DNA of 64,000 nt from Actinomycetes bacterium (GTDB lineage: Bacteria > Actinomycetota > Aquicultoria > UBA3085 > Oleimmundimicrobiaceae). The position numbers and the translations under genes are program-made. Below the pieces are notes generated by a model. The model saw only the letters and a program-made list of their open reading frames with translations. It searched no databases and was not told the DNA's origin. The stretch covers positions 4-64,003 of the forward strand of contig JAUWKI010000004.1 of the NCBI GenBank assembly GCA_030614255.1, in the 5' to 3' direction. Every line of letters begins with the position of its first letter. The first letter of the stretch is position 1. Positions 2,609-23,155 of this stretch are shown here, piece by piece.

Positions 2609-2752
2609 TAGTCGGGTGTCTGTTAGTCGGTAGTGGAGAGTTTGTTAGTTTGTTGGATGGTTTGTTTGTTTTTCCGACTCTAAGCCCTCCACTCTAAGCT
2701 CTGTACACTCTTCACTTTTAACTATTAGCCATCTGCCATACGCCATCAGCCG
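2609..2752. repeat. Interspersed repeat copy (AGTCGG-TAG module + CCATCTGCCATACGCCATCAGCC module) in the metF-hdrC gap
   Basis: tagtcgggtgtctgttagtcggtag ... gccatctgccatacgccatcagcc. Confidence 0.6.
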
Positions 2753-6375: not shown

Positions 6376-7442
6376 TGCTCCCTCAACATCTTTACAACTT
6401 CCGCCGCTGCCGCTCTTCCATGAGCCATAGACTCCTCAATGTCTTTCGGTCCCTGACAAGCTCCGGCAAGAAAAATACCGGGAGTGTTTGAAAGGTTTGT
6501 GCTTTGCTTTAGTCCTTTAAAAAAGTTGTGCTCATCGAGGTCAACTTTGAAAGTATTGGCTAAAAATTTCACATCATTCTGAGGAGACATCCCAACGGAC
6601 AGAACTATGAGGTCAAATTCGTCTTGAACGACCTCGCCCGTATTGTTATTTAAATTATTTACGCGCATAAAATCTGAATCGGCGTATCCATAAATCTTGG
6701 AGGGTAGATTTCTCACAAATTTTATTCCCATCTCTTCGCAGCTCTCGCGAAGTTTTAAAAAATCTTTTCCGGTGGGCTGAACGTCCATATAAAAAATTGT
6801 GATATCTGATTCAGGAATCTCCGATTTTACAAGCTTTGAAAGTTTTAGCGCATAAGAACAACAGACTTTGGAACAGTATCCCTTGCCAATACTTTCATCC
6901 CTACTCCCAACGCATTGAAAGAAAGTAATTTTTTCCGGAGCTGAACCATCCGTAGGTCGTGAAATTGCTCCGTTTGCGCGGATAGCCCTCTCAAAATCCG
7001 ATGCGGTAATAACGTTCTTGTACTTACCGTATCCATATTCCTTCTTCTCTTCCGCATTAAAAGGCATGAAGCCAGTCGCGATGACAATTGCTCCAATCTT
7101 TAACACCGACTCTTTAAAGAGCGACTCCTCTCCGCCAGCTTGAGAAATTCGCAGTTCAAAATCTCCAGGTTTACCCGAAAAAGACATCACCTCAGAGCCG
7201 GTTAAAACCCTTATCTTAGGATGTTGAGAAGCTTTTAAGACGAGCTCATCGGCAACACATACAAGGCACTTACTGCACTTGTCTGTAGCTTTGCAAGCGA
7301 AACTTGTTGCATGTCCACCCAGCTGAACATCTCTTTCAATTATGTGAACCATAAAACCTATATCGGTCAAAGCCACAGCCGCGCTTATGCCAGCAACACC
7401 ACCGCCGATGATGGCCACTTCTTTTGAGTTCATGTCGCCCAT
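6372..7442 (-). CDS. hdrA: HdrA-like FAD-dependent oxidoreductase (thioredoxin-reductase fold with Cys-rich inserts)
   Basis: IIGGGVAGISAA FAD motif. CKATDKCSKCLVC and CVGSRDESIGKGYCSKVCC cysteine clusters typical of HdrA. Confidence 0.7.
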   Translation of the reverse strand: MGDMNSKEVAIIGGGVAGISAAVALTDIGFMVHIIERDVQLGGHATSFACKATDKCSKCLVCVADELVLKASQHPKIRVLTGSEVMSFSGKPGDFELRISQAGGEESLFKESVLKIGAIVIATGFMPFNAEEKKEYGYGKYKNVITASDFERAIRANGAISRPTDGSAPEKITFFQCVGSRDESIGKGYCSKVCCSYALKLSKLVKSEIPESDITIFYMDVQPTGKDFLKLRESCEEMGIKFVRNLPSKIYGYADSDFMRVNNLNNNTGEVVQDEFDLIVLSVGMSPQNDVKFLANTFKVDLDEHNFFKGLKQSTNLSNTPGIFLAGACQGPKDIEESMAHGRAAAAEVVKMLREQ

Positions 7443-7462
7443 TCCTTTTAGATTTATTGGGA

Positions 7463-8806
7463 TTAAGCGCTCCAGTTTTTAAGATAAGATGGTATGTCCC
7501 CGGCTTCTCGCGGACCAACTTGTATTTCCCAATCGGGAAGTTCTTCTTCCAGCTCGCCACTTATCTGAGCCACATATCCCGGGATTACCATCTTGCGATG
7601 TTTAACTTTGTCGGTAATTCCACAACGCTTCATGAATGGGCCAATATTTTCAGGTATAAACTTACCAGCAGCCCAAGCAGTTAAAACTGATAGTCCCTCC
7701 ACATCCATTATGCAAATCCAGGACGGAATCTTACTCGCCTCCACTTCACCTGAAACGGTGAAGTAAGTTAAGGAAAAGTTTGTAGTAAGAAGCACGGGTG
7801 AATTTTCATCTGGCTCCCCGACGGGATAAATCCCTTCATCAACCTGCATTGGCTTCTGCGGATCGGTATAGATATTTTGGCGTAAAACATATAAGGGAAA
7901 CGCCTTCCATGGTTCAAGATCGCTTACGACAATAACTCCCGCATACTTCATTATGCCAACGCCAGCGGCCACCGCTTCCATGTAAGGATCGTCATACATC
8001 TCGCAAGGAAACGTGATGATTGGGTAACCGAGTGGTTTGTATTTTTTCTTAAGAGCCGCACGTCTTATGAAGGTTGCATCCCTTAAGCTATCCCTTATAT
8101 TCCTTGAGCCAGGGTCTAACACTATATCTTTAATCCCCTTGGCGGTTACTTTTTCCACTAAGTCCGAAAGCATGCTCAGATCTTTGGCAACAACCGCCAG
8201 CGGACAATTACTTTCTTTGGCAAAAGCAGTCATCTGCTCAAAATTGCTCTCATTGGCCGCATAAATAAGTGGCTTAGTTTGAGCACAAACAGAAAGAGCA
8301 GCTTTCATCATCTCAGGATTATCTGTGATTAGCACCAAAGGAAAACCGGTCTCCACGGCTCCCTTAACTAACTCGGTAAACTTAGTCGAATCATTTGAAG
8401 ATGACTTAACAGCCACCAAGTCGGCTCGAAGAAACTGGCCCACCCTTTCAAATTGGGAGTTCTTCAACTGGGCAAATTTTTCATCAATTTTCGCCTTATC
8501 CATTCCATCATCTACAAGAACAGCCAGACCCGGTTGGTGGTAGAAAGTCTTCTCGTGACGAAAGAGCACCGCCTCCTCACCAATTTTAAGAGCTTTATCC
8601 CCAACACCTATGGTCACAAGACGTATGGGTGGGGCCGAAGCCTCGGTTAGCTCAGTCTTTGCTTCCTCTGAAACGTAAGGGCATGCATCCAGCTGCGCTT
8701 GTCCTGCCACAAGTTTCATAGCAAAAGCAAGACAGGTAGGTATCCCGCATTCGCCACAATTTTTTTGAGGTAGTTTTTTGTAAATATCAAGTCCAGTTAA
8801 CGCCAT
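7463..8806 (-). CDS. acsC: Corrinoid iron-sulfur protein large subunit (CFeSP gamma, AcsC/CdhE)
   Basis: N-terminal CGECGIPTCLAFAMKL [4Fe-4S] motif. 447 aa. Adjacent to acsB. Confidence 0.9.
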   Translation of the reverse strand: MALTGLDIYKKLPQKNCGECGIPTCLAFAMKLVAGQAQLDACPYVSEEAKTELTEASAPPIRLVTIGVGDKALKIGEEAVLFRHEKTFYHQPGLAVLVDDGMDKAKIDEKFAQLKNSQFERVGQFLRADLVAVKSSSNDSTKFTELVKGAVETGFPLVLITDNPEMMKAALSVCAQTKPLIYAANESNFEQMTAFAKESNCPLAVVAKDLSMLSDLVEKVTAKGIKDIVLDPGSRNIRDSLRDATFIRRAALKKKYKPLGYPIITFPCEMYDDPYMEAVAAGVGIMKYAGVIVVSDLEPWKAFPLYVLRQNIYTDPQKPMQVDEGIYPVGEPDENSPVLLTTNFSLTYFTVSGEVEASKIPSWICIMDVEGLSVLTAWAAGKFIPENIGPFMKRCGITDKVKHRKMVIPGYVAQISGELEEELPDWEIQVGPREAGDIPSYLKNWSA

Positions 8807-8820
8807 ATAAAAAAATCTCC

Positions 8821-8912
8821 TTTCAGTCGATTTTAGCTACCAGCTATCAGTCGTCAGCTTCCAGGCGATACGCAATACTGCTGGCCCCTGGTGACTGGAT
8901 GCTGGGGGCTGA
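8821..8912. repeat. Interspersed repeat copy (CTACCAGCTATCAGTCGTCAGC variant) in the acsB-acsC gap
   Basis: Heptad-like CAGC-AT-CAG units matching the 1-112 and 2724-2752 modules. Confidence 0.5.
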
Positions 8913-11114
8913 TTAGAACATCGGTGGCATCTCCAAAGCTGGATGACTCACTTTCTGCATATGAGCTATAACCTCTTCTTCAGTAGTTGCCACGGTTTCA
9001 TCAGCTATCTTGTCAACAAAGTCAGAAACGCCCTCTTCTTCCGCACGTTTTTGAAGCTCTGAACGAAGAGTGTCTTTCAACTCTTTGGGCATCCAAACGA
9101 GTCTCTTTAAGCCACCATCGGCGGATATAAACTTCTTGCTGGTAATATACTGGCGACCTATACCGATGAATCCGGGTAGCTGAACACCGCCGCCGACCGT
9201 ACCGGCGAGGGTCGAAAATTTCATCCCGCAAGGAGTCATCTCGGGAAACTCCCTATTTACTATCATTACTCCGTTTGTCATCGGAAGAACCGCGACCACA
9301 CACTCAAAACAACCACACGAGGTCATCGGGTCTTCCATCATAGAATAGGCGTTAAAGCGCTCAAGAGACTGATTGGATTTTGCAAAGACAAACTCATTGA
9401 CATTTTTCCACTGGCCTTTGACCGCATCTATCGTATCGCCTTTTTTAACCGGCTGGTTAGGCCCCGTCGGATTGATTTCATAGGCTGCCTTGCCATCAAG
9501 CCAGTTATACGCCCCACAAAGACCCAGTCTCTCAGGCGTAATTATGCAGACGTGGTTCGGAGCAAAACTCTGACATAAGGTACAGGAATAAAAGGTATCA
9601 ACGTTTTCATCGGTCATACCGCGCACCCTTTCATCTCTGTGACGGTAGGTTTTTCTCGCTTCCTCCATCATCCGGTCAACCTTTTCAAGATCGGTGTAGA
9701 TTGTAACTTGAGCCTTATCCACAATTGCGGGGTAATCCGCGGCAAGTTTTGCGATAAGTATCTTTCCAAAGTGATGAAATTTAAAACCAGCATTCTTTGC
9801 CTTTTTGCTAACTCTTACCCATATGATGTTACGCTGACCCATATGAAATATTCCCTCAGCACCATTAATCATATGGTGAACTTGCCTCTCCAGAACCGAT
9901 TCAAAATCCTCTTGCATCTTTCTGCCAGCAACATCTATCACTACGCCGAGGGGAAGTCTTTCGCCTTCTTTGATATCATCTATATCTTTGCCAACTACCT
10001 CGATTTTGCCATTTTCCACCTCATCCATCTCTTTCATCCTCAAGAATTCGAAGGCGTGTGTCTTTGTTCCACCAAATTCTACGTAGGTATCTTCCCCTCT
10101 AATTCTCTCTCCTTCAAAAGCAGAGCCGTAGGCCACGGGTATATCAATCTTAGTAACCTGAACCTTAAGCCCTCTTACCTCAATTGCTCTTTCCACTAAT
10201 TTATCGTGGGGAATATTTGACACAACATGCTCGTAAGTACAGATTCCTGTTGGAAGAATCTGGGGAATATCAGTATCGGCAATGGTCGGAAAACCATAAT
10301 TTACAGCTCCCACCGCTTGAGCATATTTTTCATCTTCAACTTCGCCCAAAGCCAGAACGAAAGCAAAGATTCTGTTCTTGTTGTAGAGCAACACTTTCCT
10401 AAAATCTCCGGGCTTAACCCCACCGAAAGAAAGCGCAGCCCGAGTTGCAAAACCCGCGGAAAAAACGGTCGCGGTAATATCTTTGCCGAAGGGAACGAGG
10501 CGGGTTTCCCAACCCATCTGGATACCTTCTTCTTTGAGTTGCTCGGCCATGCTTTTTCCATCAGCCGAAGCCGACATGAAGACGTAAATATTTTTCTCCT
10601 GAAGCTCTCGAGCAATCTTTACCGCTATTTCATTTGTGGGAGCTGCTCCAACGCATGCGGCAAAACCGGGCGCTGAGCCATCAACAAATTCGATGCCTCT
10701 TTCTCTCATTATGACGTCATCGGCCGCACCCAACCAAAGATTATCATCAGTTGGTTCCGATGACATTGTATAAGGAGGGGACTCCACATACTTAATTGCC
10801 TCGATAATTTCATCCATAAAGAGCGTTGCCATACCGGCATCCAAAGCAGGAGCCAGATACGGCAGCCAGACTTTCTCCGATGGAACAGAAGGGAGCAAAC
10901 TCTTGGAATATGCCAAAACCTTCTCCATATCACCAAGAGTAGAAACTGCCATTCCGGTAATTCCATAAATTACAGGCAAATAATACCCCGTGTTTGGAAA
11001 CTCCACTTTTTTATCGGGTCCATGTTTCTTTAAAGCTTCTTTAAGATTTTCTTCCGCCCTCTTAGCTATCTTATGGGCGCCCCTTATGGCAGCCGAAGCG
11101 ATAATCTTAGACAA
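8913..11114 (-). CDS. acsB: Acetyl-CoA synthase (CODH/ACS A-cluster subunit)
   Basis: 733 aa. CGCFEC A-cluster motif, plus CTLCQSF and CGAYNW regions. Overlaps the cooS stop by 8 nt. Confidence 0.9.
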   Translation of the reverse strand: MSKIIASAAIRGAHKIAKRAEENLKEALKKHGPDKKVEFPNTGYYLPVIYGITGMAVSTLGDMEKVLAYSKSLLPSVPSEKVWLPYLAPALDAGMATLFMDEIIEAIKYVESPPYTMSSEPTDDNLWLGAADDVIMRERGIEFVDGSAPGFAACVGAAPTNEIAVKIARELQEKNIYVFMSASADGKSMAEQLKEEGIQMGWETRLVPFGKDITATVFSAGFATRAALSFGGVKPGDFRKVLLYNKNRIFAFVLALGEVEDEKYAQAVGAVNYGFPTIADTDIPQILPTGICTYEHVVSNIPHDKLVERAIEVRGLKVQVTKIDIPVAYGSAFEGERIRGEDTYVEFGGTKTHAFEFLRMKEMDEVENGKIEVVGKDIDDIKEGERLPLGVVIDVAGRKMQEDFESVLERQVHHMINGAEGIFHMGQRNIIWVRVSKKAKNAGFKFHHFGKILIAKLAADYPAIVDKAQVTIYTDLEKVDRMMEEARKTYRHRDERVRGMTDENVDTFYSCTLCQSFAPNHVCIITPERLGLCGAYNWLDGKAAYEINPTGPNQPVKKGDTIDAVKGQWKNVNEFVFAKSNQSLERFNAYSMMEDPMTSCGCFECVVAVLPMTNGVMIVNREFPEMTPCGMKFSTLAGTVGGGVQLPGFIGIGRQYITSKKFISADGGLKRLVWMPKELKDTLRSELQKRAEEEGVSDFVDKIADETVATTEEEVIAHMQKVSHPALEMPPMF

Positions 11115-13068
11115 TTTCCAAATCCCTCCTCATTTCCATATCGTAAAGCACTCTTTCTTTCTCGCGATCTATCCCTAAAGCTTTTCTCTTCTTATCTATA
11201 TTTTTAATTAATATCTTAGCCATCTCAACGGGATTGGGCTCGTAAAACCACTTGCCGCCCGTCGTCTCCTCAATCTCTTTAAAAAGATAATCGGACAACA
11301 CCTCGCTATTGGTTGTCGGAAAAGAGACACCAAAACCAACAGGAACTCCACTGGAAACAAAATACTGGCCAATGGCTACGGCTTTCTCGCTCATCCACTC
11401 GGGGGCGCAACCCGCGGCTGGAATTTCATCTAAGTCCTCACCAAGACCGCCCTCTTTAACTATCTCCGAAGCGGCCATGAGGATTCGGCTGTTGTCCACG
11501 CATGAACCGCAATGAAGCACGGGAGGAATACCTACTGCCTCGCAAACCTCTCGCAAACCGGCGCCCGCAAGCTCAGCGGCTTCGGGAATGAGCAATCCTT
11601 CTTTTGCGCAGCTTATCGCGGCGCACCCGGTCACCAGAACAAGCACGTTGTTTGCGATGAGCTCTTTAACCACCGTGGTATGCACGTAATCGTGTTTAAC
11701 CCGAGGGTTGTTACATCCCACAACACCAACAACACCCCTAATTCTGCCGTTAATTATATTATCGTTTAACGGCCTGTAAGAGGCGCGGAACCGTCCACCA
11801 AGCAAATACTTTATGGTCTCATGAGAAAAACCCGCAACAAGCTCGATTACTTCCTTGGGGATATCAACCTTGCCTCTCTTGGAATAATTTTTAATTGCTC
11901 GCCTGACAATGTCTTTTGCCACCTCCGGCGCCTTGTGATGATCAAATTCCATATGTGTGGCACCCAAAATTTTTCCCTTCGCCGAGGTAGTGATTACCTC
12001 AGTGTGATAACATTTAGCCACGGTGGGTAACGACTGCATGATGCATTGAACATCAACAACCATGGCATCGACCGCACCAGTACAGATAGCCAGCTCTTGT
12101 TGGAGAAAGTTACCGGCTACTGGAATACCTTTTCGCATCAAAAGCTCATTTGCCGTGCAACATATGCCGGCAATATTTATGCCCTTGGCGCCCGCCTTTT
12201 TAGCTTCTTTAATCAGCTCGGGGTCCCTCGCCGCCGCGACAATCATCTCAGAAAGTAACGGTTCATGACCGTGAACTATTAGATTAACTTGATTCTCCTT
12301 AAGAACTCCTAAGTTTACCTTTGACCTGACCGGAGTGGGAATACCAAAGAGGATATCCTGTAGTTCTGTCGCCATCATAGAACCGCCCCAACCATCGGCC
12401 AAAGAAGTTCGACAGCCATGAAGCAGGATGTTCTTATAATCCTGATCGACTCCCATGTGGGTTCGATGCATTGTTTCTACTATCTCGCGGTCCACCCCGC
12501 GAGGAGATATGCCTTCTCTTCTCCAGCGCTCCTGCCTCTTCTCCGGAGCTTGTTTTACAAGAGTTGTTTCACCTTGCTGCTTACCCATCTCGGCAAGAGC
12601 TTTCTCGCCCAGCTCCAGAGCTATCTGATTTTTATCCTTACCCTCTATATTGATATCAAAAACTTTAGCCAAAGCATGCAGCTTCGTCTCATTTTTTATC
12701 TCATAACCGGGTGCTTCACCCTTCGCCGTAGCGATAAAGGTAAATATAACCTCTCTTGCATGATCCGAATGCGCGGCCGCGCCGGCGGCTATCATTCGAG
12801 CAAAGTTTCTGGCCGCTACTGTAGAAGCGGTGGCACCGCAGACTCCCGTCCTCGTCTCGGTCACCCTACAAGGACCCATTGAACATATTTTGCAACACGT
12901 TCCGCCCGAGCCAAACGAACAGGACTTTAGAGAGGCAACTCTTTCAAAAGCAGTCTCTGCCCCATCCTTTTTGGCCTTATCTATCATTTTAGCACTTGCC
13001 GTACAGCTGGTTTGTGTGCTTGCCGCAGGGTAAAACTTGCTTTCTCCGTTTTTGCTTTGCTTTTTCAT
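11107..13068 (-). CDS. acsA: Ni-CO dehydrogenase catalytic subunit (CooS/AcsA)
   Basis: CCKICSMGPCR B/D-cluster motif, hybrid-cluster-like C-cluster ligands. 653 aa. Confidence 0.9.
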   Translation of the reverse strand: MKKQSKNGESKFYPAASTQTSCTASAKMIDKAKKDGAETAFERVASLKSCSFGSGGTCCKICSMGPCRVTETRTGVCGATASTVAARNFARMIAAGAAAHSDHAREVIFTFIATAKGEAPGYEIKNETKLHALAKVFDINIEGKDKNQIALELGEKALAEMGKQQGETTLVKQAPEKRQERWRREGISPRGVDREIVETMHRTHMGVDQDYKNILLHGCRTSLADGWGGSMMATELQDILFGIPTPVRSKVNLGVLKENQVNLIVHGHEPLLSEMIVAAARDPELIKEAKKAGAKGINIAGICCTANELLMRKGIPVAGNFLQQELAICTGAVDAMVVDVQCIMQSLPTVAKCYHTEVITTSAKGKILGATHMEFDHHKAPEVAKDIVRRAIKNYSKRGKVDIPKEVIELVAGFSHETIKYLLGGRFRASYRPLNDNIINGRIRGVVGVVGCNNPRVKHDYVHTTVVKELIANNVLVLVTGCAAISCAKEGLLIPEAAELAGAGLREVCEAVGIPPVLHCGSCVDNSRILMAASEIVKEGGLGEDLDEIPAAGCAPEWMSEKAVAIGQYFVSSGVPVGFGVSFPTTNSEVLSDYLFKEIEETTGGKWFYEPNPVEMAKILIKNIDKKRKALGIDREKERVLYDMEMRRDLEIV

Positions 13069-15614
13069 TTGTTGGCTCCTCCTTTTGAAATACTTACGGC
13101 AATGAGCCGGTGTTGCGGACTCTTTAATTTTGAATCTATGCTATCGCTTGCTAGAATACCCCGTTTATCGTGGCAACTGGGCATAAAAAACATCCCCTTG
13201 GGTAAGAAATCAAGTATCTTCGCCGAGGTTGTAACCTTGCCCCGTCTCGACTTAACCGTGACCTCGCAACCATCCTCGATTTTCAAAGACGTAGCATCCT
13301 CTGAGTTGAAAATGACATAATCTCCCGCATTCGGTTCAAGCCTGGATAGTTTGGAATTTTTTGTTCTAATCCCATCATAAAACCCAAATGTTGTTTCTCC
13401 AACAATTAAAGTATAAGGATATTTTTTATCGGGCTCTTCACCAGAAACCTTGGGTTCCACTAAGATAAAGCTATATGTATCTCTTTCGATTTTCTTTGGA
13501 ACGAAAACCAGAGACTTTATTTCCTTGGCAATCTCCTTTTCAGAAGAGTAGCCCATAGTATAATTCATTCTTTTAGACAAAGCGGTTACCGTCTTCCAAT
13601 CAGTTTCGGCCAAAGGTTCAATAACTGCCCTAACCTCTTTCGTTCGATATTCCATATTAACAATGGTTCCATTGCTCTCGGCTAAAGTTATCCCTGGCAA
13701 CACAACATCGGCCAACTTTGCGGTTTCCGTCAAAAAAGTATCTTGGGCCACCAGGAAGTCTAAGGATGAGAGCGACTTGGCCACACTGGAAGAGTTAGGA
13801 AATTGAGTAACCGGATCCGCTCCAACTATATACATCCCAAGAATAGATGAGCCCATTCCGTCCAACATTTCCTTAATAGAAAGTCCGGCCTTTTTAGGAA
13901 GTTTAACTCCCCAAGTCTTCTCAAAATCGTTCCTGGCTTCATCTATTTTTCTTACACCCGGATAAAATTCGGCCAAAGCTCCCATGTAAACCGTGCCCCG
14001 CAGATTAGAAGAGAGGAGGCACGGGAGAACGCTCGCTCTAGTTTTACCTGTTAAAAGAGAGATATTGGCAATCAATTCCATGGTTTGAGGGCTTACCGTC
14101 TCAGCCCCAAAGACTATAACCGTCTTTTTTCCTTCGCCATAGAGCTTTGCGGCTCTCTTTAAAACATCTTTAGAAATTCCCGACTCTTTTTCTACCATTT
14201 CCATCTTTAATTTACCAAGAGACTTCTTTAAATCCTCAAATTTCCCGCATTTCTTGGCAAATTCTTCATCGTAAACTTTACCGTCAAGTAACTCTTTCAA
14301 AAGCCCGCTTAAAATAAACTCGTCGGAGCCGGCCTTTGACTGAATATATATATCGGCTTTCTCGGAAATTTTTGTCCTTCCGGCATCTACAACTACCAGC
14401 TTTGCTCCGCTTGAAAGCGCTCTTTTTACGGCCACACCCACACGAGGATAGGCCACTGTAACATCCGCGTTCACGAGCAAGAGAGTATCGACTTCCTCAA
14501 TATCTTCCATTGAAACAACAGCTCCATCTCCCAGCGCTTCATATAAATCAATCAAAGCGGGGAAACCGAGAAGCCTGGCGGAGCTATCGATGTTGTTCGT
14601 CCCGATACCGGCCCTTAAAAACTTTTGGAATAAGTAAGCAACCTCGTTTGTATTCCCTGCGCCGATAAAGCCGCCAATGCTATTTGCCCCATGAGCTTTC
14701 TTTATATCAAGAAGACGCTCTGCCGCAAACTTAATGGCCTCTTCGTAAGTACTCTCAGTTAAAATTCCGTCCTTTTTAATCAAAGGTTTTATAATTCGCT
14801 TAGGGTTTTCCACAAAATCCCATCCAAATCTACCCTTTGCACAGAGAAAGTCTCCGGGGCTCTCGCCGGTTGTTCTCATAATCTGCCCATCCACGATGCC
14901 AAATACGAGGTCACAACCACAGCCACAATAGGAACAGACCGTTTTGGTCTCTTCCATCTCCCATTCTCGCCCACGAAAACGCCTGTCGACCTCGAGTAAC
15001 GCGCCAACGGGACAAACCGCAAGACAGCTTCCACAAAAATCACAGCCCGATTCCTGCAAGGGCTTATCCAACGGTGTTGCCACCTTGGTAATCATGCCTC
15101 GCTTTATAAAATCTATGATATCCGCCCCCTGCGTTTTGCAGATTCCCACACACCGTCCGCACAAAATACAGAGATTGTAATTCCTCTCTATAAAAGGATT
15201 GCTTTTATCTATCTCATAACCGGGATCTTTCATCGAGAAACTTGTTTTCTCAATGCCAAGCTCGTAAGCGTATTTCTGAAGCTCACAAGCACCGTTTTTA
15301 TCGCAACTCATACAATCGCCAGAGTGATTTGAAAGTATTAGCTCCAGAACAAAACGTCTCGCTTCCCGAACCTTTTCTGTATTGGTATTAATCACCATTC
15401 CATTCTTAACTTTTCGAGTACATGAGGCCACGAGCCCTTTTGCTCCCTCAACTTCGACTAAACAAACCCTACACGAGCCCGTGCTAGGCAGGCATTCACA
15501 GTAACAAAGATGGGGTATGTCAATCCCTGCCATCTTGGCCGCCTGAATAATAAGCGTTCCTTCGGAAACTTTTACTTCTTTTCCATTTATCGTTACGGTG
15601 ACTTGCTCACTCAA
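13065..15614 (-). CDS. NAD-dependent formate dehydrogenase alpha-like / NuoG-like molybdopterin-family protein with degenerate active site
   Basis: N-terminal 2Fe-2S domain. His-ligated [4Fe-4S] (HSGDCMSCDKNGAC). 2x[4Fe-4S] ferredoxin. MopB CSYCGCGC motif. Molybdopterin and dinucleotide-binding domains. The conserved VDCCARVUHGPS motif reads IDSSARLLGFPA, i.e. Sec/Cys to Leu and His to Gly. 4-nt overlap with cooS start. Confidence 0.75.
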   Translation of the reverse strand: MSEQVTVTINGKEVKVSEGTLIIQAAKMAGIDIPHLCYCECLPSTGSCRVCLVEVEGAKGLVASCTRKVKNGMVINTNTEKVREARRFVLELILSNHSGDCMSCDKNGACELQKYAYELGIEKTSFSMKDPGYEIDKSNPFIERNYNLCILCGRCVGICKTQGADIIDFIKRGMITKVATPLDKPLQESGCDFCGSCLAVCPVGALLEVDRRFRGREWEMEETKTVCSYCGCGCDLVFGIVDGQIMRTTGESPGDFLCAKGRFGWDFVENPKRIIKPLIKKDGILTESTYEEAIKFAAERLLDIKKAHGANSIGGFIGAGNTNEVAYLFQKFLRAGIGTNNIDSSARLLGFPALIDLYEALGDGAVVSMEDIEEVDTLLLVNADVTVAYPRVGVAVKRALSSGAKLVVVDAGRTKISEKADIYIQSKAGSDEFILSGLLKELLDGKVYDEEFAKKCGKFEDLKKSLGKLKMEMVEKESGISKDVLKRAAKLYGEGKKTVIVFGAETVSPQTMELIANISLLTGKTRASVLPCLLSSNLRGTVYMGALAEFYPGVRKIDEARNDFEKTWGVKLPKKAGLSIKEMLDGMGSSILGMYIVGADPVTQFPNSSSVAKSLSSLDFLVAQDTFLTETAKLADVVLPGITLAESNGTIVNMEYRTKEVRAVIEPLAETDWKTVTALSKRMNYTMGYSSEKEIAKEIKSLVFVPKKIERDTYSFILVEPKVSGEEPDKKYPYTLIVGETTFGFYDGIRTKNSKLSRLEPNAGDYVIFNSEDATSLKIEDGCEVTVKSRRGKVTTSAKILDFLPKGMFFMPSCHDKRGILASDSIDSKLKSPQHRLIAVSISKGGANK

Positions 15615-15631
15615 TTCCTCTCCTCCTTTGG

Positions 15632-16153
15632 CTATACAATTTCTATTGCACCAACTTCACAAACGGTTAAACATTGCCCGCACTTGGTGCATTTTTTATC
15701 TCTAACGTAATAGGGGTTATTGTCTGAAAGATAGGGAACCAGCTTCTCTCCCACAATTGCATCCTCGGGACAGACTTTTTTGCAAGCATCACACATCACA
15801 CATTTCTCCGGATCTATCCAGTAATTAATGAGAAGTTCACAGGAGTTATGAGAACAGTGACCATCTTTTATGTGCTCTTCATATTCATCTCTAGAAGAAG
15901 TCAAAGAGTCCTGTAAAAAATTTGCCGCGTCCTTGCCAAGCTTACATCGAGCGGTATCAATGATGTTGGAAGATGTTTTTTCTAGAACAACCATATCTCT
16001 CTCTTCACCCTCACTTTTTGTGATTCGTTCCAAGACATCGATTATCCGAGTTGTGCCAAGCATGCAAGGCAAACATTTGCCACACATCTTATCCTTGGCA
16101 AATCCCTTGAAAAATTCGAGCGTTATTAGAACGGAACAACCCTCGCTACTCAT
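15632..16153 (-). CDS. Small Fe-S protein: NuoF C-terminal-type [4Fe-4S] motif plus 2x[4Fe-4S] ferredoxin
   Basis: CGKCLPCMLGT (NADH_4Fe-4S-like) followed by CVMCDACKKVCP and CTKCGQCLTVCE. ATGA overlap with the nuoF-like gene. Confidence 0.55.
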   Translation of the reverse strand: MSSEGCSVLITLEFFKGFAKDKMCGKCLPCMLGTTRIIDVLERITKSEGEERDMVVLEKTSSNIIDTARCKLGKDAANFLQDSLTSSRDEYEEHIKDGHCSHNSCELLINYWIDPEKCVMCDACKKVCPEDAIVGEKLVPYLSDNNPYYVRDKKCTKCGQCLTVCEVGAIEIV

Positions 16154-18066
16154 GTGGCCACCCCCTGCTTGCCGGTAGGCAGGTTGGATGCAGTAGATGC
16201 GGTCTTTCGTTCAAATTCCCTGACGACACAACCGGTCGGGCACACACCAATACAAGCCCCGCATTTTTCGCAATATGACTCATCAATGTAGAATCTACTG
16301 CGCTCTTCCACAACTGCCTCATAAGAACACACTTCCTTACAAAGACCACAGAGAAGACATTCCTCCTCGATTATCCTATATCGACCGAGCGCGACGCACG
16401 CTCCGGCCGGACAATACTTATCCCTGATATGCGCCTCGTACTCATCTCTAAAATATCTGATGGTAGAGAGCACAGGGTTGGGCGCACTTTTGCCCAAACC
16501 ACAAAGGGCTGTTTCTTGAATATGTCTGCTAATACTTTCCAGGCGTTCAATATCTCCCTCTTCGCCCTTCCCCTCAACAATTCTCTCCAAAATCTTGAGC
16601 ATCTCATACGTCCCAATTCTGCAAGGCGGACACTTCCCGCAGGACTCCACCTGAGTGAAAGAGAGAAAATATCTGGAAATTTCTACCATGCAATCGGACT
16701 CATCCATCACGACAAGCCCTCCGGAACCCATCATGGCTCCAACCTCATTTAATGAATCAAAGTCAACGGGCAAATCCAGATATTCTTTTGGAATACAACC
16801 GCCACTAGGCCCTCCTATCTGAACAGCTTTAAACTCTTTGTCTCCTAAAATCCCACCGCCTATATCGTAGACAATTTCTCGAATGGTGATCCCCATCGGG
16901 ACTTCGATTAGCCCCGTGTTTTTAACCTTCCCGGTAAGAGCAAATATTTTTGTTCCCGGGGAGCTCTTCGTGCCAATGGAGGTATACCATTTAGCCCCCT
17001 TGACCAATATCGGAGGAATATTCGCAAGGGTCTCGACGTTATTTAAGACCGTCGGCTTACCCCAGAGACCCTTCTCCACCGAACGAGGAGGTGTCGTTCG
17101 AGGCATGCCCCTCTTGCCTTCAACAGAAAACATCAGCGCGGTGGATTCTCCACATATAAAAGCACCCGCTCCACGTTTTATTTCCAAATCGAAATCAAAA
17201 CCACTTCCGAGTATGTTCTCACCCAAAAGACCAAGTTCCCTTGCTTGGTTAATAGCTATCGTTAGATTCTTAACCGCCAAGGGATATTCTTGTCTTACAT
17301 ATATAAACCCCTCTTTGCAATTGCCCAGAGCATAGGCTCCTATTATCATGCCTTCGATGACAGAATGAGGGTCACCTTCCAAAACGCTTCTATCCATGAA
17401 AGCACCAGGGTCACCTTCGTCGCCGTTGCAAACGATGTACTTCACGTCGCTCTCTGTTTTTCGGCCTCCCTCCCACTTTCTTCCCGTCGGGAAACCCGCT
17501 CCACCTCGACCCCTCAGGTTGGATTTCTTAATCTTTTCTATAACTTCATCGGGAGCCATATCATTTAGCACCTTTGCCAGCGCTCCATAACCACCAACCG
17601 TGATATAATCATCCATACTGGTGGGATCAATATGGCCACAATTTCTTAAAACTATGCGCTGTTGTTTGCCGTAAAATAGAATTTCTTCCTCCTTAACAGC
17701 AAGTTCTCCGGTGATGGGGTCAACCACCTGTAGTCGGTCGATAACCTTGCCACGATTTACGGTGAGATCAATTATTTTTGCTGTATCGAACGGATCGACC
17801 TTTTGATAAAAGACATCCAACGGCTCTACGATTACAATGGGACCCTTCTCGCACAAACCCTGACAGCCCGTAGGCCTTATCTCAAAATCAATGCCTTGTT
17901 TTATAGCTTCCGCTTTAAAAGCTTCCACAACCTCTTGCGCACCGGAAGCGCGACACCCAGTCCCACTACAGACTCGAATTATTTTCTTTTTTTGTTTAGC
18001 CCGTTCACTACATATCTTCTCTCTTAAGACACCTAGCTCTTTAGTCTTTTTGAGTCTACTCATCAT
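16150..18066 (-). CDS. NuoF-like NAD(P)H-binding flavoprotein (HydB/HndC/FdhB type) with N-terminal thioredoxin-like 2Fe-2S domain and C-terminal ferredoxin domains
   Basis: GRGGAGFPTGRKWE FMN/NADH motif. ESCGKCPPCRIG [4Fe-4S]. Two C-terminal CxxCxxCxxxCP motifs. Confidence 0.85.
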   Translation of the reverse strand: MMSRLKKTKELGVLREKICSERAKQKKKIIRVCSGTGCRASGAQEVVEAFKAEAIKQGIDFEIRPTGCQGLCEKGPIVIVEPLDVFYQKVDPFDTAKIIDLTVNRGKVIDRLQVVDPITGELAVKEEEILFYGKQQRIVLRNCGHIDPTSMDDYITVGGYGALAKVLNDMAPDEVIEKIKKSNLRGRGGAGFPTGRKWEGGRKTESDVKYIVCNGDEGDPGAFMDRSVLEGDPHSVIEGMIIGAYALGNCKEGFIYVRQEYPLAVKNLTIAINQARELGLLGENILGSGFDFDLEIKRGAGAFICGESTALMFSVEGKRGMPRTTPPRSVEKGLWGKPTVLNNVETLANIPPILVKGAKWYTSIGTKSSPGTKIFALTGKVKNTGLIEVPMGITIREIVYDIGGGILGDKEFKAVQIGGPSGGCIPKEYLDLPVDFDSLNEVGAMMGSGGLVVMDESDCMVEISRYFLSFTQVESCGKCPPCRIGTYEMLKILERIVEGKGEEGDIERLESISRHIQETALCGLGKSAPNPVLSTIRYFRDEYEAHIRDKYCPAGACVALGRYRIIEEECLLCGLCKEVCSYEAVVEERSRFYIDESYCEKCGACIGVCPTGCVVREFERKTASTASNLPTGKQGVAT

Positions 18067-18571
18067 CCTCTTCCCCTTTATTTTTAAGGGTAGCGATTAT
18101 CTTTTTTGGATTTCTTTCCTTTGAAACATTCTCGTTTACCACCACAACGGGGGCAAGTGCGCAACACCCCACACAACTCACTGTTTCAAGCGTGAACTCA
18201 AAGTCATCGGTCGTTTCACCGGCTTCTATGCCAAGCTCTTCTTCCAGCCCATCAAGAATTACTTTTGAACCACGAACGTGACAGGCAGTACCCGTGCAAA
18301 CTTTAATTACGTTTTTGCCTCGAGGAGTGAAATAAAAGTGTGCATAAAATGAAGCGACTCCGTAAACATGGGCTAGGGGGAGATCAAGTTTCTCGGCAAT
18401 AATCCTGAATGCTTCTTCAGGCAAAAAACTAAATTCCTTTTGAATATCCTGAAGGGCGTGCACAAGCACTCCCCTTTTGCCCTCATGCTTTTCCAGCAAC
18501 TCAAAAATACGGTTGGCATCTATTTGAATCTTCGTCTCCTCTTTTTTTGTACCGCAAACGCAATTAGACAT
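18056..18571 (-). CDS. NuoE-like thioredoxin-fold [2Fe-2S] protein (HydC/HndA/FdhG type)
   Basis: CTGTACHVRGS ... SCVGCCALAP 2Fe-2S ligands. 171 aa. Confidence 0.85.
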   Translation of the reverse strand: MSNCVCGTKKEETKIQIDANRIFELLEKHEGKRGVLVHALQDIQKEFSFLPEEAFRIIAEKLDLPLAHVYGVASFYAHFYFTPRGKNVIKVCTGTACHVRGSKVILDGLEEELGIEAGETTDDFEFTLETVSCVGCCALAPVVVVNENVSKERNPKKIIATLKNKGEEDDE

Positions 18572-18586
18572 TACGCTTCCTCCAAA

Positions 18587-19525
18587 CTAGCCCATTAACT
18601 CATCAATGAACCTTTTTGTTAATTTAACAGCTTCAGGATGCCTCATAACTAAGATATCGCCCCCAGCTATTAACATGCTAACCGCGGTCATAAACTCCCA
18701 GAGAATCCCCCTCTTTTCGGGATCTCCCCAGTTTGAATCATCTTCTGTTTTCACTTCTTTGGTTTTCCAAACTTCTCTGCCAAAATCGCATAACGTCGGC
18801 ATTTGAGTCATCTCATCATTCTGTTGAAGAGCTGCGAGTCTTAATCTCTCGATGATTGAGTAGACATACTCCAATCCATAACCTAAGGCCGCACCGCTTG
18901 GGTCCATCACCAATCTATCAGCGTCCAAGCCTAGCTGAGTCATCAATATATTTAACTGCTTGGCCATATTTACATCAATTGGGGAAAGCCCTGAAACATT
19001 GTGTTTGTAACCAATGGCCGCAGCCGTTATTGATTTGTAGTTGTCTTCCTGAGATGGGCCCAATATAACTCTCTGCCCTTCTGCAACCTCGGCAACTTTC
19101 TTTAAAACCTCTCCGTCACTCTCAACGTTACCGCTTCCATAGACACATACCGGAACAGATACTACTTCCAGAATCGCCTTGGCCATCTCGGCAGCTTTTG
19201 CGGGATCCTTATTCTCGCCATTTGGATCGGTGCTAACAAGCCGCAATAAAATCATATCCGCCCCATACTCATCCTGGCACTTTTTGGCCCAAGCAACGGG
19301 GTCATTCAATACATCCTTGAATGGTTTAAGAACAGCACCTGGCCAATTATCTGGAGCTATATCATAAACCTCCATAGCTATAACCGGTCTTCTTGGCATC
19401 TCACCTTCAAAAAAGTGAAATGGAAGTGTGGCCTCTCCGCCGACCACAACCTGGTTGCTTTCTTTACCCACAGCAACCTCGCGAACCTTTCCTTGATATG
19501 TATCCACTGGTGCCTGAAATGCCAT
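18587..19525 (-). CDS. acsD: Corrinoid iron-sulfur protein small subunit (CFeSP delta, AcsD/CdhD)
   Basis: VVVGGEATLPFHFFEG region typical of AcsD TIM-barrel subunit. 312 aa. Confidence 0.85.
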   Translation of the reverse strand: MAFQAPVDTYQGKVREVAVGKESNQVVVGGEATLPFHFFEGEMPRRPVIAMEVYDIAPDNWPGAVLKPFKDVLNDPVAWAKKCQDEYGADMILLRLVSTDPNGENKDPAKAAEMAKAILEVVSVPVCVYGSGNVESDGEVLKKVAEVAEGQRVILGPSQEDNYKSITAAAIGYKHNVSGLSPIDVNMAKQLNILMTQLGLDADRLVMDPSGAALGYGLEYVYSIIERLRLAALQQNDEMTQMPTLCDFGREVWKTKEVKTEDDSNWGDPEKRGILWEFMTAVSMLIAGGDILVMRHPEAVKLTKRFIDELMG

Positions 19526-19575
19526 TTTGTATCTCCTTCCAAAACCAAATTTTTTCCTTATATCTCTCTACAACT

Positions 19576-20424
19576 TTATGCCTGCATTCTAGCTGCTTTA
19601 ATCGTATTTTTTAAGAGCATCGTTATGGTCATCGGGCCAACTCCACCGGGGACGGGAGTAATGGCCGAAGCCTTCACGCTCACGCTTTCAAAATCAACAT
19701 CTCCCGCAAGCTTCCCGTTCTCAAGCCGATTTACCCCGACATCGATTACAACAGCGCCTTCTTTTATCATCTCGCCTTTAATCATTTTCGGTTTGCCCAC
19801 TGCGGCCACCAGCACGTCTGCTCTTTTGGTGTGGAAACTTAAGTCTTTGGTCTTTGAATGGCAGATGGTAACTGTCGCGCTCTTCGATAACAACATGAGT
19901 GAAATCGGTTTTCCAACAATGTTGCTCCTTCCAACAACCACAGCTTCTTTCCCCTTCAAATCTATTCCCGCACGCTCAAGTAAGATCATTATTCCGTGCG
20001 GCGTACAAGGAAGAAATGTCTCTTCTCCTATAACTAGCTTTCCGATATTTTCCGGATGAAAACCATCCACATCTTTAGCAGGATTTATGGCATAAAGGAC
20101 CTTTTTTTCATTAATTTGCTTGGGCAAAGGGAGTTGCGCCAATATTCCATTTATCTTGTCGTCCACATTTAATTTATTGACCAAAACCAGCAATTCTTCC
20201 TCGGAAACATCCGCGGGCAAAACGTATTTCTCCGAGTAAATGCCAGTTTGAGCACAGCCTTTCTCTTTTTGCCCAACATAAACTTTAGAAGCAGGATCAT
20301 CTCCGACAATAACAACCGCCAACCCCGGCACGATACCTTCTTTCTTTAGCTGTGCTACCTCTTCTGTCATCTCTTGACGAAGCGAGGCAGCAATTGCCTT
20401 CCCATCAATAATCTTTGCTGACAT
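19576..20424 (-). CDS. folD: Bifunctional methylene-THF dehydrogenase / methenyl-THF cyclohydrolase
   Basis: KIIDGKAIA ... PGLAVVIVGDDPAS ... DVDGFHP motifs. 282 aa. Confidence 0.9.
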   Translation of the reverse strand: MSAKIIDGKAIAASLRQEMTEEVAQLKKEGIVPGLAVVIVGDDPASKVYVGQKEKGCAQTGIYSEKYVLPADVSEEELLVLVNKLNVDDKINGILAQLPLPKQINEKKVLYAINPAKDVDGFHPENIGKLVIGEETFLPCTPHGIMILLERAGIDLKGKEAVVVGRSNIVGKPISLMLLSKSATVTICHSKTKDLSFHTKRADVLVAAVGKPKMIKGEMIKEGAVVIDVGVNRLENGKLAGDVDFESVSVKASAITPVPGGVGPMTITMLLKNTIKAARMQA

Positions 20425-20443
20425 CTATTTACTCCTTTCGAGT

Positions 20444-21214: not shown

Positions 21215-21217
21215 TTG

Positions 21218-23137: not shown

Positions 23138-23155
23138 TTAAACACCCTTTTCCTT

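What the first reader, a model, noticed from the sequence alone, without database searches (positions are those of the whole stretch)
13065..15614. Formate-dehydrogenase-like alpha subunit with the catalytic Sec/Cys-His dyad replaced by Leu-Gly
All cofactor-binding modules of an NAD-linked FdhA are present. These are the N-terminal 2Fe-2S domain, the His-ligated cluster, two ferredoxin domains, the MopB [4Fe-4S] motif CSYCGCGC, and the molybdopterin and dinucleotide domains. The universally conserved active-site segment (FdhH: NNVDCCARVUHGPS) reads NNIDSSARLLGFPA, at codons CTT CTC GGT (14566-14574 region). Neither Leu codon is one change away from TGA or TGY, so a Sec/Cys sequencing artefact is unlikely. 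The protein is therefore probably not a formate dehydrogenase but a NuoG-like electron-transfer or scaffold pseudo-enzyme. Consequently no functional FDH is encoded in this Wood-Ljungdahl cluster.
Basis: partly seen in the sequence, partly recalled or inferred. Interest (0 to 1): 0.7.

Follow-up and report, generated by a model that had tools for sequence, protein, structure and literature searches.

The report
Dead formate dehydrogenase wired to CODH/ACS
The gene encodes a formate-dehydrogenase look-alike that has lost its three catalytic residues but kept every iron-sulfur site, and it belongs to a conserved family that always sits between NADH/ferredoxin "bifurcating" subunits and the CO dehydrogenase of the Wood-Ljungdahl pathway, so it most likely acts as an electron wire or scaffold.

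Summary
ORF 13065-15614 (-) encodes an 849-aa FdsA/FdhA-type protein. The Mo-ligand Cys/Sec is Leu349 and the adjacent His is Gly350 (codons at 14565-14573, one base off the stated range).

This is not a one-off decay. In a 121-sequence alignment, 52 sequences lack all three catalytic residues, keep all 20 Fe-S ligands and separate from 69 genuine FDHs by a single tree split. Constraint is inverted relative to real FDHs: the Fe-S module is the best conserved part, the pterin-binding motifs are degenerate, and some members have lost domain IV.

In all 16 independent loci with enough sequence, the gene order is BfuC(NuoE)-BfuB(HydB-type NuoF)-173-aa Fe-S protein-FdhA*-AcsA. These loci come from MAGs labelled Actinomycetota, Bacillota, Chloroflexota, Desulfonatronaceae and Acetothermia. 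None of 59 Cys/Sec-type FdhA loci has AcsA downstream.

Best reading: an inactive, FDH-derived BfuA subunit of an NAD(H)/ferredoxin Bfu-type module that serves the CODH of CODH/ACS. The closest published idea is the uncharacterised "Codh-Bfu". The window holds no FDH, but the rest of the genome could not be examined. I rate it a new variant of a known kind, of moderate to high interest.

The parts
13065..15614 (-). FdhA* : 849-aa FDH-alpha-like protein lacking the catalytic Cys/Sec, His and Arg; inferred BfuA-type Fe-S subunit
14565..14573 (-). Codons ctt ctc ggt = Leu348-Leu349-Gly350. Leu349 replaces the Mo-ligand Cys/Sec and Gly350 replaces the catalytic His.
13995..14024 (-). PCLLSSNLRG (residues 531-540) in place of the FDH motif PLRGQNNVQG. 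The catalytic Arg is replaced by Leu533.
14913..14936 (-). CSYCGCGC (C227, C230, C234; fourth ligand C258): MopB [4Fe-4S] site, Cys 100% conserved in the family
15632..16153 (-). X173: 173-aa Fe-S protein. It is a free-standing copy of the BfuB/HydB C-terminus (N3-like [4Fe-4S], CPxxxC, 2x[4Fe-4S]). As a separate gene it was found only in this family.
16150..18066 (-). BfuB/HydB-type NuoF homologue (638 aa) with an N-terminal [2Fe-2S] domain, an FMN/NADH domain and a C-terminal 2x[4Fe-4S] domain
18056..18571 (-). BfuC/HydC-type NuoE homologue (171 aa, thioredoxin-like [2Fe-2S])
11107..13068 (-). acsA (Ni-CODH catalytic subunit, 653 aa). Its ATG overlaps the FdhA* stop codon (ATGA).
8913..11114 (-). 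acsB (acetyl-CoA synthase subunit)
1172..24874 (-). Wood-Ljungdahl operon: fhs, RACo, cooC, folD, acsD, bfuC, bfuB, X173, fdhA*, acsA, acsB, acsC, pyr_redox, hdrA, mvhD, metV, metF, hdrC, hdrB

Best explanation
FdhA* descends from an NAD-linked formate dehydrogenase alpha subunit. It no longer oxidises formate and most likely no longer binds Mo/W-bis-pyranopterin. It has been kept as the Fe-S 'A' subunit (BfuA-like) of a HydABC/Bfu-type flavoprotein module made of BfuC, BfuB and FdhA*, plus the extra three-cluster protein X173.

Shown:
- The three catalytic residues are lost and the pterin motifs have decayed.
- All five Fe-S sites are strictly retained.
- BfuB has the full set of extra cluster domains found in bifurcating HydB.
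- Gene order with acsA is invariant and translationally coupled across phyla.

Inferred:
- The module docks on the CODH subunit (AcsA) of CODH/ACS and links its C-cluster to NAD(H) at the BfuB flavin and to ferredoxin, through the clusters of X173 and FdhA*.
- By analogy with HydABC, the reaction would be 2 CO + NAD+ + 2 Fd(ox) <-> 2 CO2 + NADH + 2 Fd(red).
- In the CO2-fixing direction, half the electrons for the carbonyl branch would then come from NADH, which is feasible only because ACS keeps free CO very low.

My rough probabilities:
- Not a formate dehydrogenase: 0.9.
- Subunit of a Bfu-type module: 0.8.
- Module serves CODH: 0.6.
- True bifurcation/confurcation with CO/CO2 as the third couple: 0.35.
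For: Catalytic losses:
- Cys386/His387/Arg587 of R. capsulatus FdsA align with Leu349/Gly350/Leu533.
- In a 121-sequence alignment, all 52 family members lack the three residues, while all 69 genuine FDHs have HCAR-LCH and PLRGQNNVQG.

Conservation pattern:
- All 20 Fe-S ligands are 100% conserved in the family.
- Only 50 of 132 FDH-invariant columns in MopB domains I-III are kept, and 4 of 33 in domain IV. The GSNTxExHP, MGxTQH, TNxERR and TGR..H motifs are lost or deleted.
- Five members have a truncated domain IV.
- Mean identity within the family is 0.61-0.67 for the Fe-S module and 0.34-0.47 for the MopB part. In real FDHs the values are 0.57-0.58 and 0.61-0.70.
- Positions conserved specifically in the family lie in the Fe-S module: F88, G99, L148, Q162, G190, S196.
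- A single split separates the family from the real FDHs in an NJ tree.

Fold and partners:
- The fold is still a complete FDH alpha: pLDDT 92, TM 0.94 to 7vw6_A and 6tg9_A, against 0.79 for NuoG.
- The NuoF homologue matches bifurcating HydB chains over its full length (7t2r_B 1e-238, 8a6t_B 1e-237), including the N- and C-terminal cluster domains. Non-bifurcating FdsB matches only residues 33-543.
- The Cys ligands of X173 are conserved in 12 loci.

Synteny:
- 16 of 16 independent loci with room downstream, the window included, have acsA directly downstream. They come from MAGs or genomes labelled Actinomycetota, Chloroflexota, Desulfonatronaceae, Acetothermia, Ammonifex, Desulfotomaculum and Thermoanaerobacteraceae.
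- None of the other FdhA loci has acsA downstream (0 of 59). Conservative Fisher p = 2e-12.
- The insertion point differs between lineages (after cooC in Bacillota, after acsD in Actinomycetota), but the block is always immediately 5' of acsA.
- ATGA overlaps join fdhA*/acsA and bfuB/X173.
- L065 carries a Cys-type BfuCB-FdhA and the dead module with acsA on one contig, so the two are not redundant.

Precedent:
- Incomplete pterin sites are reported in the Fdh-like domain of NfnA (PMC11829005).
- An uncharacterised Codh-Bfu has been predicted (PMC9304861).
Against: - There is no biochemical, proteomic or structural evidence for a complex with AcsA. Gene order alone supports the link.
- At standard potentials CO (-520 mV) can reduce both ferredoxin and NAD+ without bifurcation, a point Schut et al. 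themselves raise. The energetic rationale therefore depends on an assumed low CO activity.
- The full four-domain FDH fold and the MopB [4Fe-4S] site are retained and still under constraint, which a pure wire might not need.
- Absence of the pterin is inferred from sequence, not shown.
- The same operon also carries metFV-hdr-mvhD genes, which could be the real redox partner.
Confidence: 0.55

Rival explanations
1. FdhA* is the scaffold (HylA-like BfuA) of a 'Type 3' bifurcating formate dehydrogenase whose pterin-containing catalytic subunit (FdhF-type) is encoded elsewhere. The complex would still reduce CO2 to formate for the methyl branch.
For: Type 3 Fdh-Bfu enzymes, with a cofactor-less BfuA plus a separate Fdh subunit, are known from G. 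acidurici (PMC9304861). L001 has a 684-aa MopB gene at the head of its WL cluster. fhs in this operon needs a source of formate.
Against: No FdhF-type gene is adjacent to FdhA* in any of the 16 loci, and none occurs in the 64-kb window. The invariant neighbour is acsA, with overlapping stop and start codons. L088 keeps the link to CODH even without acsB alongside.
Confidence: 0.12
2. The BfuCB-X173-FdhA* module is an NADH/ferredoxin entry point for another step of the operon. Candidates are the MetFV-HdrABC-MvhD methylene-THF reductase or reductive activation of the corrinoid protein. Its position next to acsA would then be an accident of operon history.
For: metF, metV, mvhD and hdrA/B/C lie in the same operon here and in L001, L006 and L008. 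As I recall, the electron partners of the Hdr-linked MetFV complexes are still unresolved.
Against: The insertion point varies between phyla yet is always directly upstream of acsA. Several loci (L003, L004, L014, L087) place acsB, acsC, RACo, cooC and acsD between the module and any met/hdr genes.
Confidence: 0.15
3. FdhA* still binds a Mo/W-pterin without a protein ligand (as in arsenite oxidase, from memory) and catalyses formate/CO2 or some other conversion by a non-canonical mechanism.
For: The complete four-domain FDH fold is predicted with high confidence (TM 0.94 to real FDHs). The MopB [4Fe-4S] site is strictly conserved.
Against: The residue at the ligand position varies within the family (L, Y, H, F, S, T, A, G). 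His and Arg are lost, most pterin-contact motifs are lost or deleted, and domain IV is truncated in several members. Constraint on the MopB part is relaxed relative to the Fe-S part.
Confidence: 0.06
4. The gene is a decaying pseudogene, or the substitution is a sequencing or assembly artefact.
For: None beyond the loss of the catalytic residues.
Against: The 849-codon frame is intact. The identical protein occurs on three contigs. Homologues at 92% to 39% identity in several phyla carry the same losses and conserved Fe-S ligands. Each Leu codon is at least two substitutions from Cys or Sec codons.
Confidence: 0.02

Closest known systems
NAD-dependent formate dehydrogenase alpha subunit (FdsA of Rhodobacter capsulatus 6TG9; FDH1 of Methylorubrum extorquens 7VW6) and Type 1 Fdh-Bfu
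   Same: Same domain order and fold (phmmer 1e-116 to 1e-117; Foldseek TM 0.94). Same five Fe-S sites. The partners are NuoE- and NuoF-type subunits.
   Different: The Cys/Sec ligand, His and Arg are all replaced and the pterin motifs are degenerate. The protein scores below the NCBIfam Fdh-alpha cut-off. The partner NuoF is the bifurcating HydB type. An extra X173 subunit is present and acsA lies downstream.
NuoG/Nqo3 of respiratory complex I
   Same: An FDH-derived subunit that kept the N-terminal Fe-S clusters and lost Mo catalysis, and that works with NuoE and NuoF.
   Different: No nuoA-N context. Sequence and fold are closer to real FDHs than to NuoG (TM 0.94 versus 0.79; 361 bits against the 470-bit NuoG cut-off). 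The MopB [4Fe-4S] site is fully retained and the partner is HydB-type.
BfuA subunits with a cofactor-less Fdh/NuoG-like domain: HydA of NiFe-HydABCSL (Acetomicrobium mobile 7T2R), NfnA/StnA (9BOV, 8OH5)
   Same: A Bfu-type module in which the A subunit carries a pterin-free Fdh-like domain and passes electrons to a separate catalytic unit. BfuB here is most similar to 7t2r_B.
   Different: Those A subunits are shorter (HydA) or fused to an NfnL-like domain (NfnA/StnA) and are much more diverged from FDHs (TMq 0.63-0.67). Their partners are a NiFe hydrogenase or NADP(H), not CODH. None has X173.
Predicted, uncharacterised 'Codh-Bfu' (Schut et al. 2022, PMC9304861)
   Same: The same idea: CODH genes embedded in a BfuABC cluster, with CO/CO2 as the proposed third couple.
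   Different: It is described from 4 sequences in Firmicutes (Acetohalobium, C. cellulovorans), with the CODH genes and extra Fe-S subunits lying between bfuB and bfuA. Here the order is bfuC-bfuB-X173-fdhA*-acsA. The CODH is the AcsA of bifunctional CODH/ACS inside a WL operon, BfuA is a full-length dead FDH, and the family spans at least five phylum-level labels.
FDH-like subunit of the Dehalococcoides organohalide-respiration complex
   Same: A MopB 'formate dehydrogenase' in which the Cys/Sec position is substituted (Ser) and which serves as a non-FDH module in a larger redox complex (PMC5736913).
   Different: That protein is a membrane-associated FdnG-type protein without the NuoG-like N-terminus, in a different complex and lineage.

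Membership tests
Mo/W-bis-PGD formate dehydrogenase (FdhF/FdsA/FdhA) | MopB four-domain fold with an N-terminal [4Fe-4S] (FS0) site | tested here: met
   Pfam domains; AF2 model TM 0.94 to 7vw6_A and 6tg9_A; C227/C230/C234/C258 invariant
Mo/W-bis-PGD formate dehydrogenase (FdhF/FdsA/FdhA) | Cys or Sec ligand to Mo/W followed by the catalytic His | tested here: not met
   Leu349-Gly350 opposite Cys386-His387 of 6tg9_A; absent in all 52 family members
Mo/W-bis-PGD formate dehydrogenase (FdhF/FdsA/FdhA) | Catalytic Arg (R587 in RcFdsA, R333 in FdhH) within PLRGQNNVQG | tested here: not met
   PCLLSSNLRG, with Leu533 at the Arg position
Mo/W-bis-PGD formate dehydrogenase (FdhF/FdsA/FdhA) | Conserved pterin/MGD-contact motifs and an intact domain IV | tested here: not met
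   40 of 132 FDH-invariant columns lost in domains I-III; 4 of 33 kept in domain IV; QH and WPC..PGT..LH segments deleted; domain IV truncated in 5 members. Actual cofactor content was not measured.
Mo/W-bis-PGD formate dehydrogenase (FdhF/FdsA/FdhA) | Score above the curated equivalog cut-off (TIGR01591) | tested here: not met
   453 bits versus a cut-off of 666
NuoG (complex I 75-kDa subunit) | Score above the TIGR01973 cut-off and a nuoA-N operon context | tested here: not met
   361 bits versus 470; neighbours are WL genes and no nuo membrane subunits
Bfu (HydABC-type) electron-bifurcating family, A subunit | Adjacent BfuB with FMN/NADH domain plus the extra N-terminal [2Fe-2S] and C-terminal 2x[4Fe-4S] domains, and BfuC | tested here: met
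   Full-length match to 7t2r_B, 8a6t_B and 7p5h_B with the Cys motifs aligned; BfuC = 2Fe-2S_thioredx
Bfu (HydABC-type) electron-bifurcating family, A subunit | BfuA N-terminal cluster set ([2Fe-2S], His-ligated [4Fe-4S], two [4Fe-4S]) | tested here: met
   C37/48/51/65, H97/C101/104/110 and C149-C201 are invariant
Bfu (HydABC-type) electron-bifurcating family, A subunit | Demonstrated coupled reduction of NAD+ and ferredoxin by a third substrate | not testable with these tools
   Requires enzyme assays
Codh-Bfu (predicted class of Schut et al. 2022) | CODH catalytic gene inside the bfu gene cluster | tested here: met
   acsA overlaps the fdhA* stop codon; 16 of 16 loci
Codh-Bfu (predicted class of Schut et al. 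2022) | Gene order as published (CODH genes and extra Fe-S subunits between bfuB and bfuA; Firmicutes only) | tested here: not met
   Order is bfuC-bfuB-X173-fdhA*-acsA-acsB, and the family is found in several phyla

The most novel reading that the evidence does not exclude
The CODH/ACS of many uncultured and some cultured anaerobes is part of a supercomplex with a Bfu-type flavoprotein module (BfuC-BfuB-X173-FdhA*). Examples include the Actinomycetota class Aquicultoria, Chloroflexota, Acetothermia, Desulfonatronaceae, Ammonifex and Desulfotomaculum. The supercomplex would couple CO2/CO conversion at the C-cluster simultaneously to NAD(H) and ferredoxin. That would be a fourth bifurcating or confurcating step in the Wood-Ljungdahl pathway. 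It would halve the demand of the carbonyl branch for low-potential ferredoxin, or, in the oxidative direction, recover NADH from acetyl-CoA cleavage.
Probability: 0.35. Interest if true: 0.8.

Novelty: new variant of a known kind. Interest (0 to 1): 0.55.

Why it matters
Genome-based metabolic models routinely count this gene as the formate dehydrogenase of the Wood-Ljungdahl pathway. JGI names several family members 'formate dehydrogenase alpha subunit'. That reading is almost certainly wrong, so these organisms either have another FDH or depend on external formate.

The strict coupling of a bifurcating-type NADH/ferredoxin module to acsA across phyla also gives a concrete, testable hypothesis: NAD(H) may take part in the carbonyl branch. 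If true, that changes the ATP and ferredoxin budgets assumed for acetogenesis, syntrophic acetate oxidation and autotrophy in energy-limited subsurface bacteria. Cultured carriers such as Ammonifex make the experiment feasible.

Tried and rejected
- **Sec or Cys artefact.** Rejected. The Leu codons are at least two changes away, the same protein occurs on three contigs, and the losses are family-wide.
- **Second MopB/FDH, tRNA-Sec, sel or Moco genes in the window.** None found.
- **Rosetta-stone fusion of FdhA* to AcsA.** The 1405-aa hit P0121 turned out to be two tandem FdhA-like copies from a different degenerate lineage, so it is not a fusion with CODH.
- **X173 upstream of live FDHs.** An automatic count suggested this, but it is an artefact. 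X173 matches the homologous C-terminus of BfuB. In the non-overlapping assignment, a separate X173 gene appears only in the dead family, or at contig edges where BfuB is cut.
- **Literature.** They found the Bfu family paper and its predicted Codh-Bfu, but no description of this FdhA*-X173-AcsA arrangement. The Actinobacteria WL paper (doi 10.1038/s41396-021-00935-9) is not held, and the paper's organism list (Supplementary Table 1) is not held as text. Prior mention elsewhere therefore cannot be excluded.
- **Pterin pocket in the model.** Direct inspection was not possible because coordinates are not exposed. Motif conservation was used instead.
- **Family size.** The exhaustive profile search showed that FDH/NuoG-like proteins lacking the ligand and Arg are common in general (94 of 146 new top representatives). 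Loss of catalysis in itself is therefore not unusual.

Full report
**1. The observation**

ORF 13065-15614 on the minus strand encodes an 849-aa protein. Its start is a TTG preceded by AGGAGG. Pfam finds the full domain series of an NAD-linked FDH alpha subunit: Fer2_4, NADH-G_4Fe-4S_3, a two-cluster ferredoxin domain, Molybdop_Fe4S4 (CSYCGCGC), Molybdopterin, and a weak, partial Molydop_binding domain.

The segment GTNNIDSSARLLGFPA is residues 338-353.

The best PDB sequence matches are genuine FDH alpha subunits: 9wxb_B at 1e-117 and R. capsulatus FdsA 6tg9_A at 1.6e-116. Counting along the printed alignment gives these correspondences:

| R. capsulatus FdsA | This protein |
|---|---|
| Cys386 | Leu349 |
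| His387 | Gly350 |
| Arg587 (PLRGQNNVQG) | Leu533 (PCLLSSNLRG) |

Both Leu codons need at least two substitutions to become TGY or TGA.

**2. It is a family, not an accident**

The word-indexed protein search returned 120 relatives. In a MAFFT alignment with the query, 69 carry HCAR-LCH and PLRGQNNVQG. The other 52, the query included, lack Cys/Sec, His and Arg without exception.

An NJ tree separates the two groups by a single split. The nearest named relative (92% identity) is annotated Candidatus Oleimmundimicrobium sp., in Actinomycetota, Candidatus Aquicultoria. The window itself matches ENA metagenome contig ERZ4220937 NODE_81.

Within the family, all 20 ligands of the five Fe-S sites are 100% conserved. 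Columns that are invariant in real FDHs fare as follows:

| Region | FDH-invariant columns | Kept in the family |
|---|---|---|
| MopB domains I-III | 132 | 50 (40 essentially lost) |
| Domain IV | 33 | 4 |

The classic pterin-contact stretches (GSNTxExHP, MGxTQH, TNxERR, TGR..H) are replaced or deleted. Five members have a truncated domain IV.

Mean pairwise identity shows that constraint has moved:

| Group | Fe-S module | MopB part |
|---|---|---|
| This family | 0.61-0.67 | 0.34-0.47 |
| Real FDHs | 0.57-0.58 | 0.61-0.70 |

The few positions conserved specifically in the family lie in the Fe-S module: F88, G99, L148, Q162, G190 and S196. No new Cys appears.

NCBIfam places the protein below the curated cut-offs of both Fdh-alpha (453 versus 666 bits) and NuoG (361 versus 470 bits). 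The AlphaFold2 model is confident (pLDDT 92.2, pTM 0.91). It still superposes on complete FDH alpha subunits at TM 0.94, against 0.79 for mycobacterial NuoG and 0.63 for the A subunit of NiFe-HydABCSL. The shell of an FDH is kept, but its catalytic furniture is not.

**3. The neighbours**

The gene lies in a long minus-strand Wood-Ljungdahl operon: fhs, RACo, cooC, folD, acsD, nuoE-like, nuoF-like, a 173-aa Fe-S protein, fdhA*, acsA, acsB, acsC, a pyr_redox gene, hdrA, mvhD, metV, metF, hdrC and hdrB.

- **NuoF homologue (638 aa).** It is not the short FdsB/NuoF type. It matches the B subunits of structurally characterised bifurcating enzymes end to end (7t2r_B 1e-238, 8a6t_B 1e-237, 7p5h_B 1e-202). 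The match includes the N-terminal [2Fe-2S] and C-terminal 2x[4Fe-4S] domains, with their Cys motifs aligned. FdsB of R. capsulatus covers only residues 33-543. These extra sites are the ones the Bfu literature says non-bifurcating homologues lack (PMC11829005).
- **173-aa protein (X173).** It is a free-standing copy of the HydB C-terminus, with an N3-like [4Fe-4S], a CPxxxC motif and two ferredoxin clusters. Its Cys ligands are conserved in 12 loci.
- **Translational coupling.** fdhA*/acsA and bfuB/X173 overlap as ATGA.

**4. Synteny across phyla**

Contexts came from look-ups of individual proteins and from a scan of one genome per species. I classified them by tblastn with the window's proteins and by active-site motif.

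All 16 independent loci of the dead family that have room downstream, the window included, read (BfuC-BfuB-)X173-FdhA*-AcsA. One further locus ends just after FdhA*. The record titles name these sources:

- Actinomycetota
- Chloroflexota
- Desulfonatronaceae
- Candidatus Acetothermia JdFR-47
- Ammonifex thiophilus
- Desulfotomaculum sp.
- Thermoanaerobacteraceae
- 'Eubacteriales'

None of 59 other FdhA loci with room has acsA downstream. In the non-overlapping assignment, a separate X173 gene appears only in the dead family. The conservative Fisher test gives p = 2e-12.

Three further points bear on the link to CODH:

- The block is inserted after cooC in Bacillota and after acsD in Actinomycetota and Desulfonatronaceae, yet always directly 5' of acsA.
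- In L088 the CODH gene follows FdhA* and no acsB follows it on that short contig.
- L065 carries a Cys-type BfuC-BfuB-FdhA and the dead module with acsA on the same contig. The dead copy is therefore not a substitute for an FDH.

**5. Mechanism**

Shown:

- loss of the catalytic triad and decay of the pterin site;
- strict retention of the five clusters;
- a bifurcating-type B/C pair;
- an added three-cluster protein;
- invariant, translationally coupled linkage to the Ni-CODH gene (TIGR01702 659 bits).

Inferred:

- FdhA* is the A subunit of a Bfu-type module.
- Its third redox partner is the CODH of CODH/ACS.
- Electrons pass between the AcsA clusters and the BfuB flavin through X173 and the FdhA* clusters.
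- NAD(H) binds at BfuB and ferredoxin at the B/C cluster domains, as in HydABC.

By analogy the stoichiometry would be 2 CO + NAD+ + 2 Fd(ox) <-> 2 CO2 + NADH + 2 Fd(red). At standard potentials this coupling is unnecessary (CO/CO2 is -520 mV). Schut et al. raise the same problem for their predicted Codh-Bfu and suggest it matters at very low CO (PMC9304861). Inside CODH/ACS, where CO is consumed by ACS, the effective potential could approach the mean of NADH and ferredoxin. This last step is my inference, and I give it about 0.35.

**6. Rivals**

- **Scaffold for a separately encoded FdhF (Type 3 Fdh-Bfu).** Possible, since L001 has a MopB gene at the head of its cluster. But no such gene is adjacent in any locus and none is in the window.
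- **Module for MetFV-Hdr or another WL step.** Possible because the genes share the operon. The variable insertion site that is always next to acsA argues against it.
- **Non-canonical pterin enzyme.** Unlikely, given the motif decay, the variable residue at the ligand position and the loss of domain IV in some members.
- **Pseudogene or artefact.** Excluded by conservation.

**7. Comparison with what is known**

FDH-derived subunits without Mo are well known: NuoG, the A subunit of NiFe-HydABCSL, and the Fdh-like domain of NfnA/StnA with its incomplete pterin site. A profile search of 1.84 billion representatives shows that many FDH/NuoG-like proteins lack the ligand and Arg (94 of 146 new top hits). 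Loss of catalysis is therefore a known kind of event.

What I did not find described is this particular family: a full-length, FDH-proximal dead alpha subunit plus X173, tied to acsA inside WL operons of several phyla. I used ten full-text searches and read the Bfu family paper. The nearest published concept is the uncharacterised Codh-Bfu, described from four Firmicutes sequences with a different gene order and a different BfuA.

The search has limits. One relevant paper and the paper's organism list (Supplementary Table 1) are not held.

**8. Verdict**

- 'No FDH in this cluster' holds for the 64 kb only.
- Novelty: a new variant of a known kind.
- Interest 0.55. The annotation correction is solid and broadly relevant to WL pathway reconstructions. 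The CODH-Bfu coupling is an attractive, directly testable hypothesis, but it rests on gene order alone.

Noticed in passing
window 27351-29129 (-): A 592-aa protein combines an [FeFe]-hydrogenase large-subunit C-domain, a putative Fe-S motif and a GGDEF diguanylate cyclase domain. This looks like a sensory hydrogenase fused to c-di-GMP synthesis. It lies just upstream of a GAF-histidine kinase/LytTR pair (25001-27059) and the WL operon.
   Followed up: no
window 15632-16153 (-) and loci L001, L003, L004, L006-L010, L012, L014, L020, L086-L088: X173 is a free-standing duplicate of the HydB/BfuB C-terminus (three [4Fe-4S] motifs plus CPxxxC). As a separate gene it was found only next to the dead FdhA family. 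L020 has two copies in tandem.
   Followed up: partly
L054, L058, L060, L062, L067, L076, L079 (genome scan): Some FdhA genes of the Cys/Sec lineage in Dehalococcoidales and Nitrospirota MAGs keep the Cys but have the His and/or Arg replaced (for example LCQ+PLSG, LCY+PLGG, LCA+PLFG). This is partial active-site decay independent of the family studied here.
   Followed up: no
L065 (Candidatus Acetothermia JdFR-47, MTNI01000211.1): One contig carries both a Cys-type BfuC-BfuB-FdhA cluster (2921-7902, +) and the dead BfuC-BfuB-X173-FdhA*-AcsA cluster (17259-10641, -), arranged convergently.
   Followed up: partly
L022 (Peptococcaceae MAG), about 6287-10600 (-): A CODH-like gene is followed by BfuC and BfuB on the strand opposite a Cys-type FdhA. 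This may be an example of the published Codh-Bfu arrangement.
   Followed up: no
window 48547-50907 and 50908-52458 (+): CobN/Mg-chelatase is encoded as two abutting ORFs (profile positions 1-657 and 661-1089) joined by TAA-GTG. The surrounding genes include a ChlI/VWA-type chelatase, a double ABC ATPase next to a CbiQ permease, and ABC-2 transporter genes.
   Followed up: no
window 4750-7442 (-) and 113-1171 (-): The HdrA-like function is split into a 356-aa pyr_redox protein and a 541-aa HdrA. The methyltransferase acsE (Pterin_bind) is absent from the whole 64 kb although the other acs genes are present (tblastn). The last ORF of the cluster (352 aa) has no Pfam match.
   Followed up: partly
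P0121 (1405 aa, representative library): This is a tandem fusion of two FdhA-like units in one polypeptide. The first has RIEH instead of R-x-C-H but keeps PLR.
   Followed up: no
window 56274-57143 (-): An IS200-like (Y1 transposase) gene lies at the border between the + strand chelatase/transporter block and the following - strand efflux genes.
   Followed up: no
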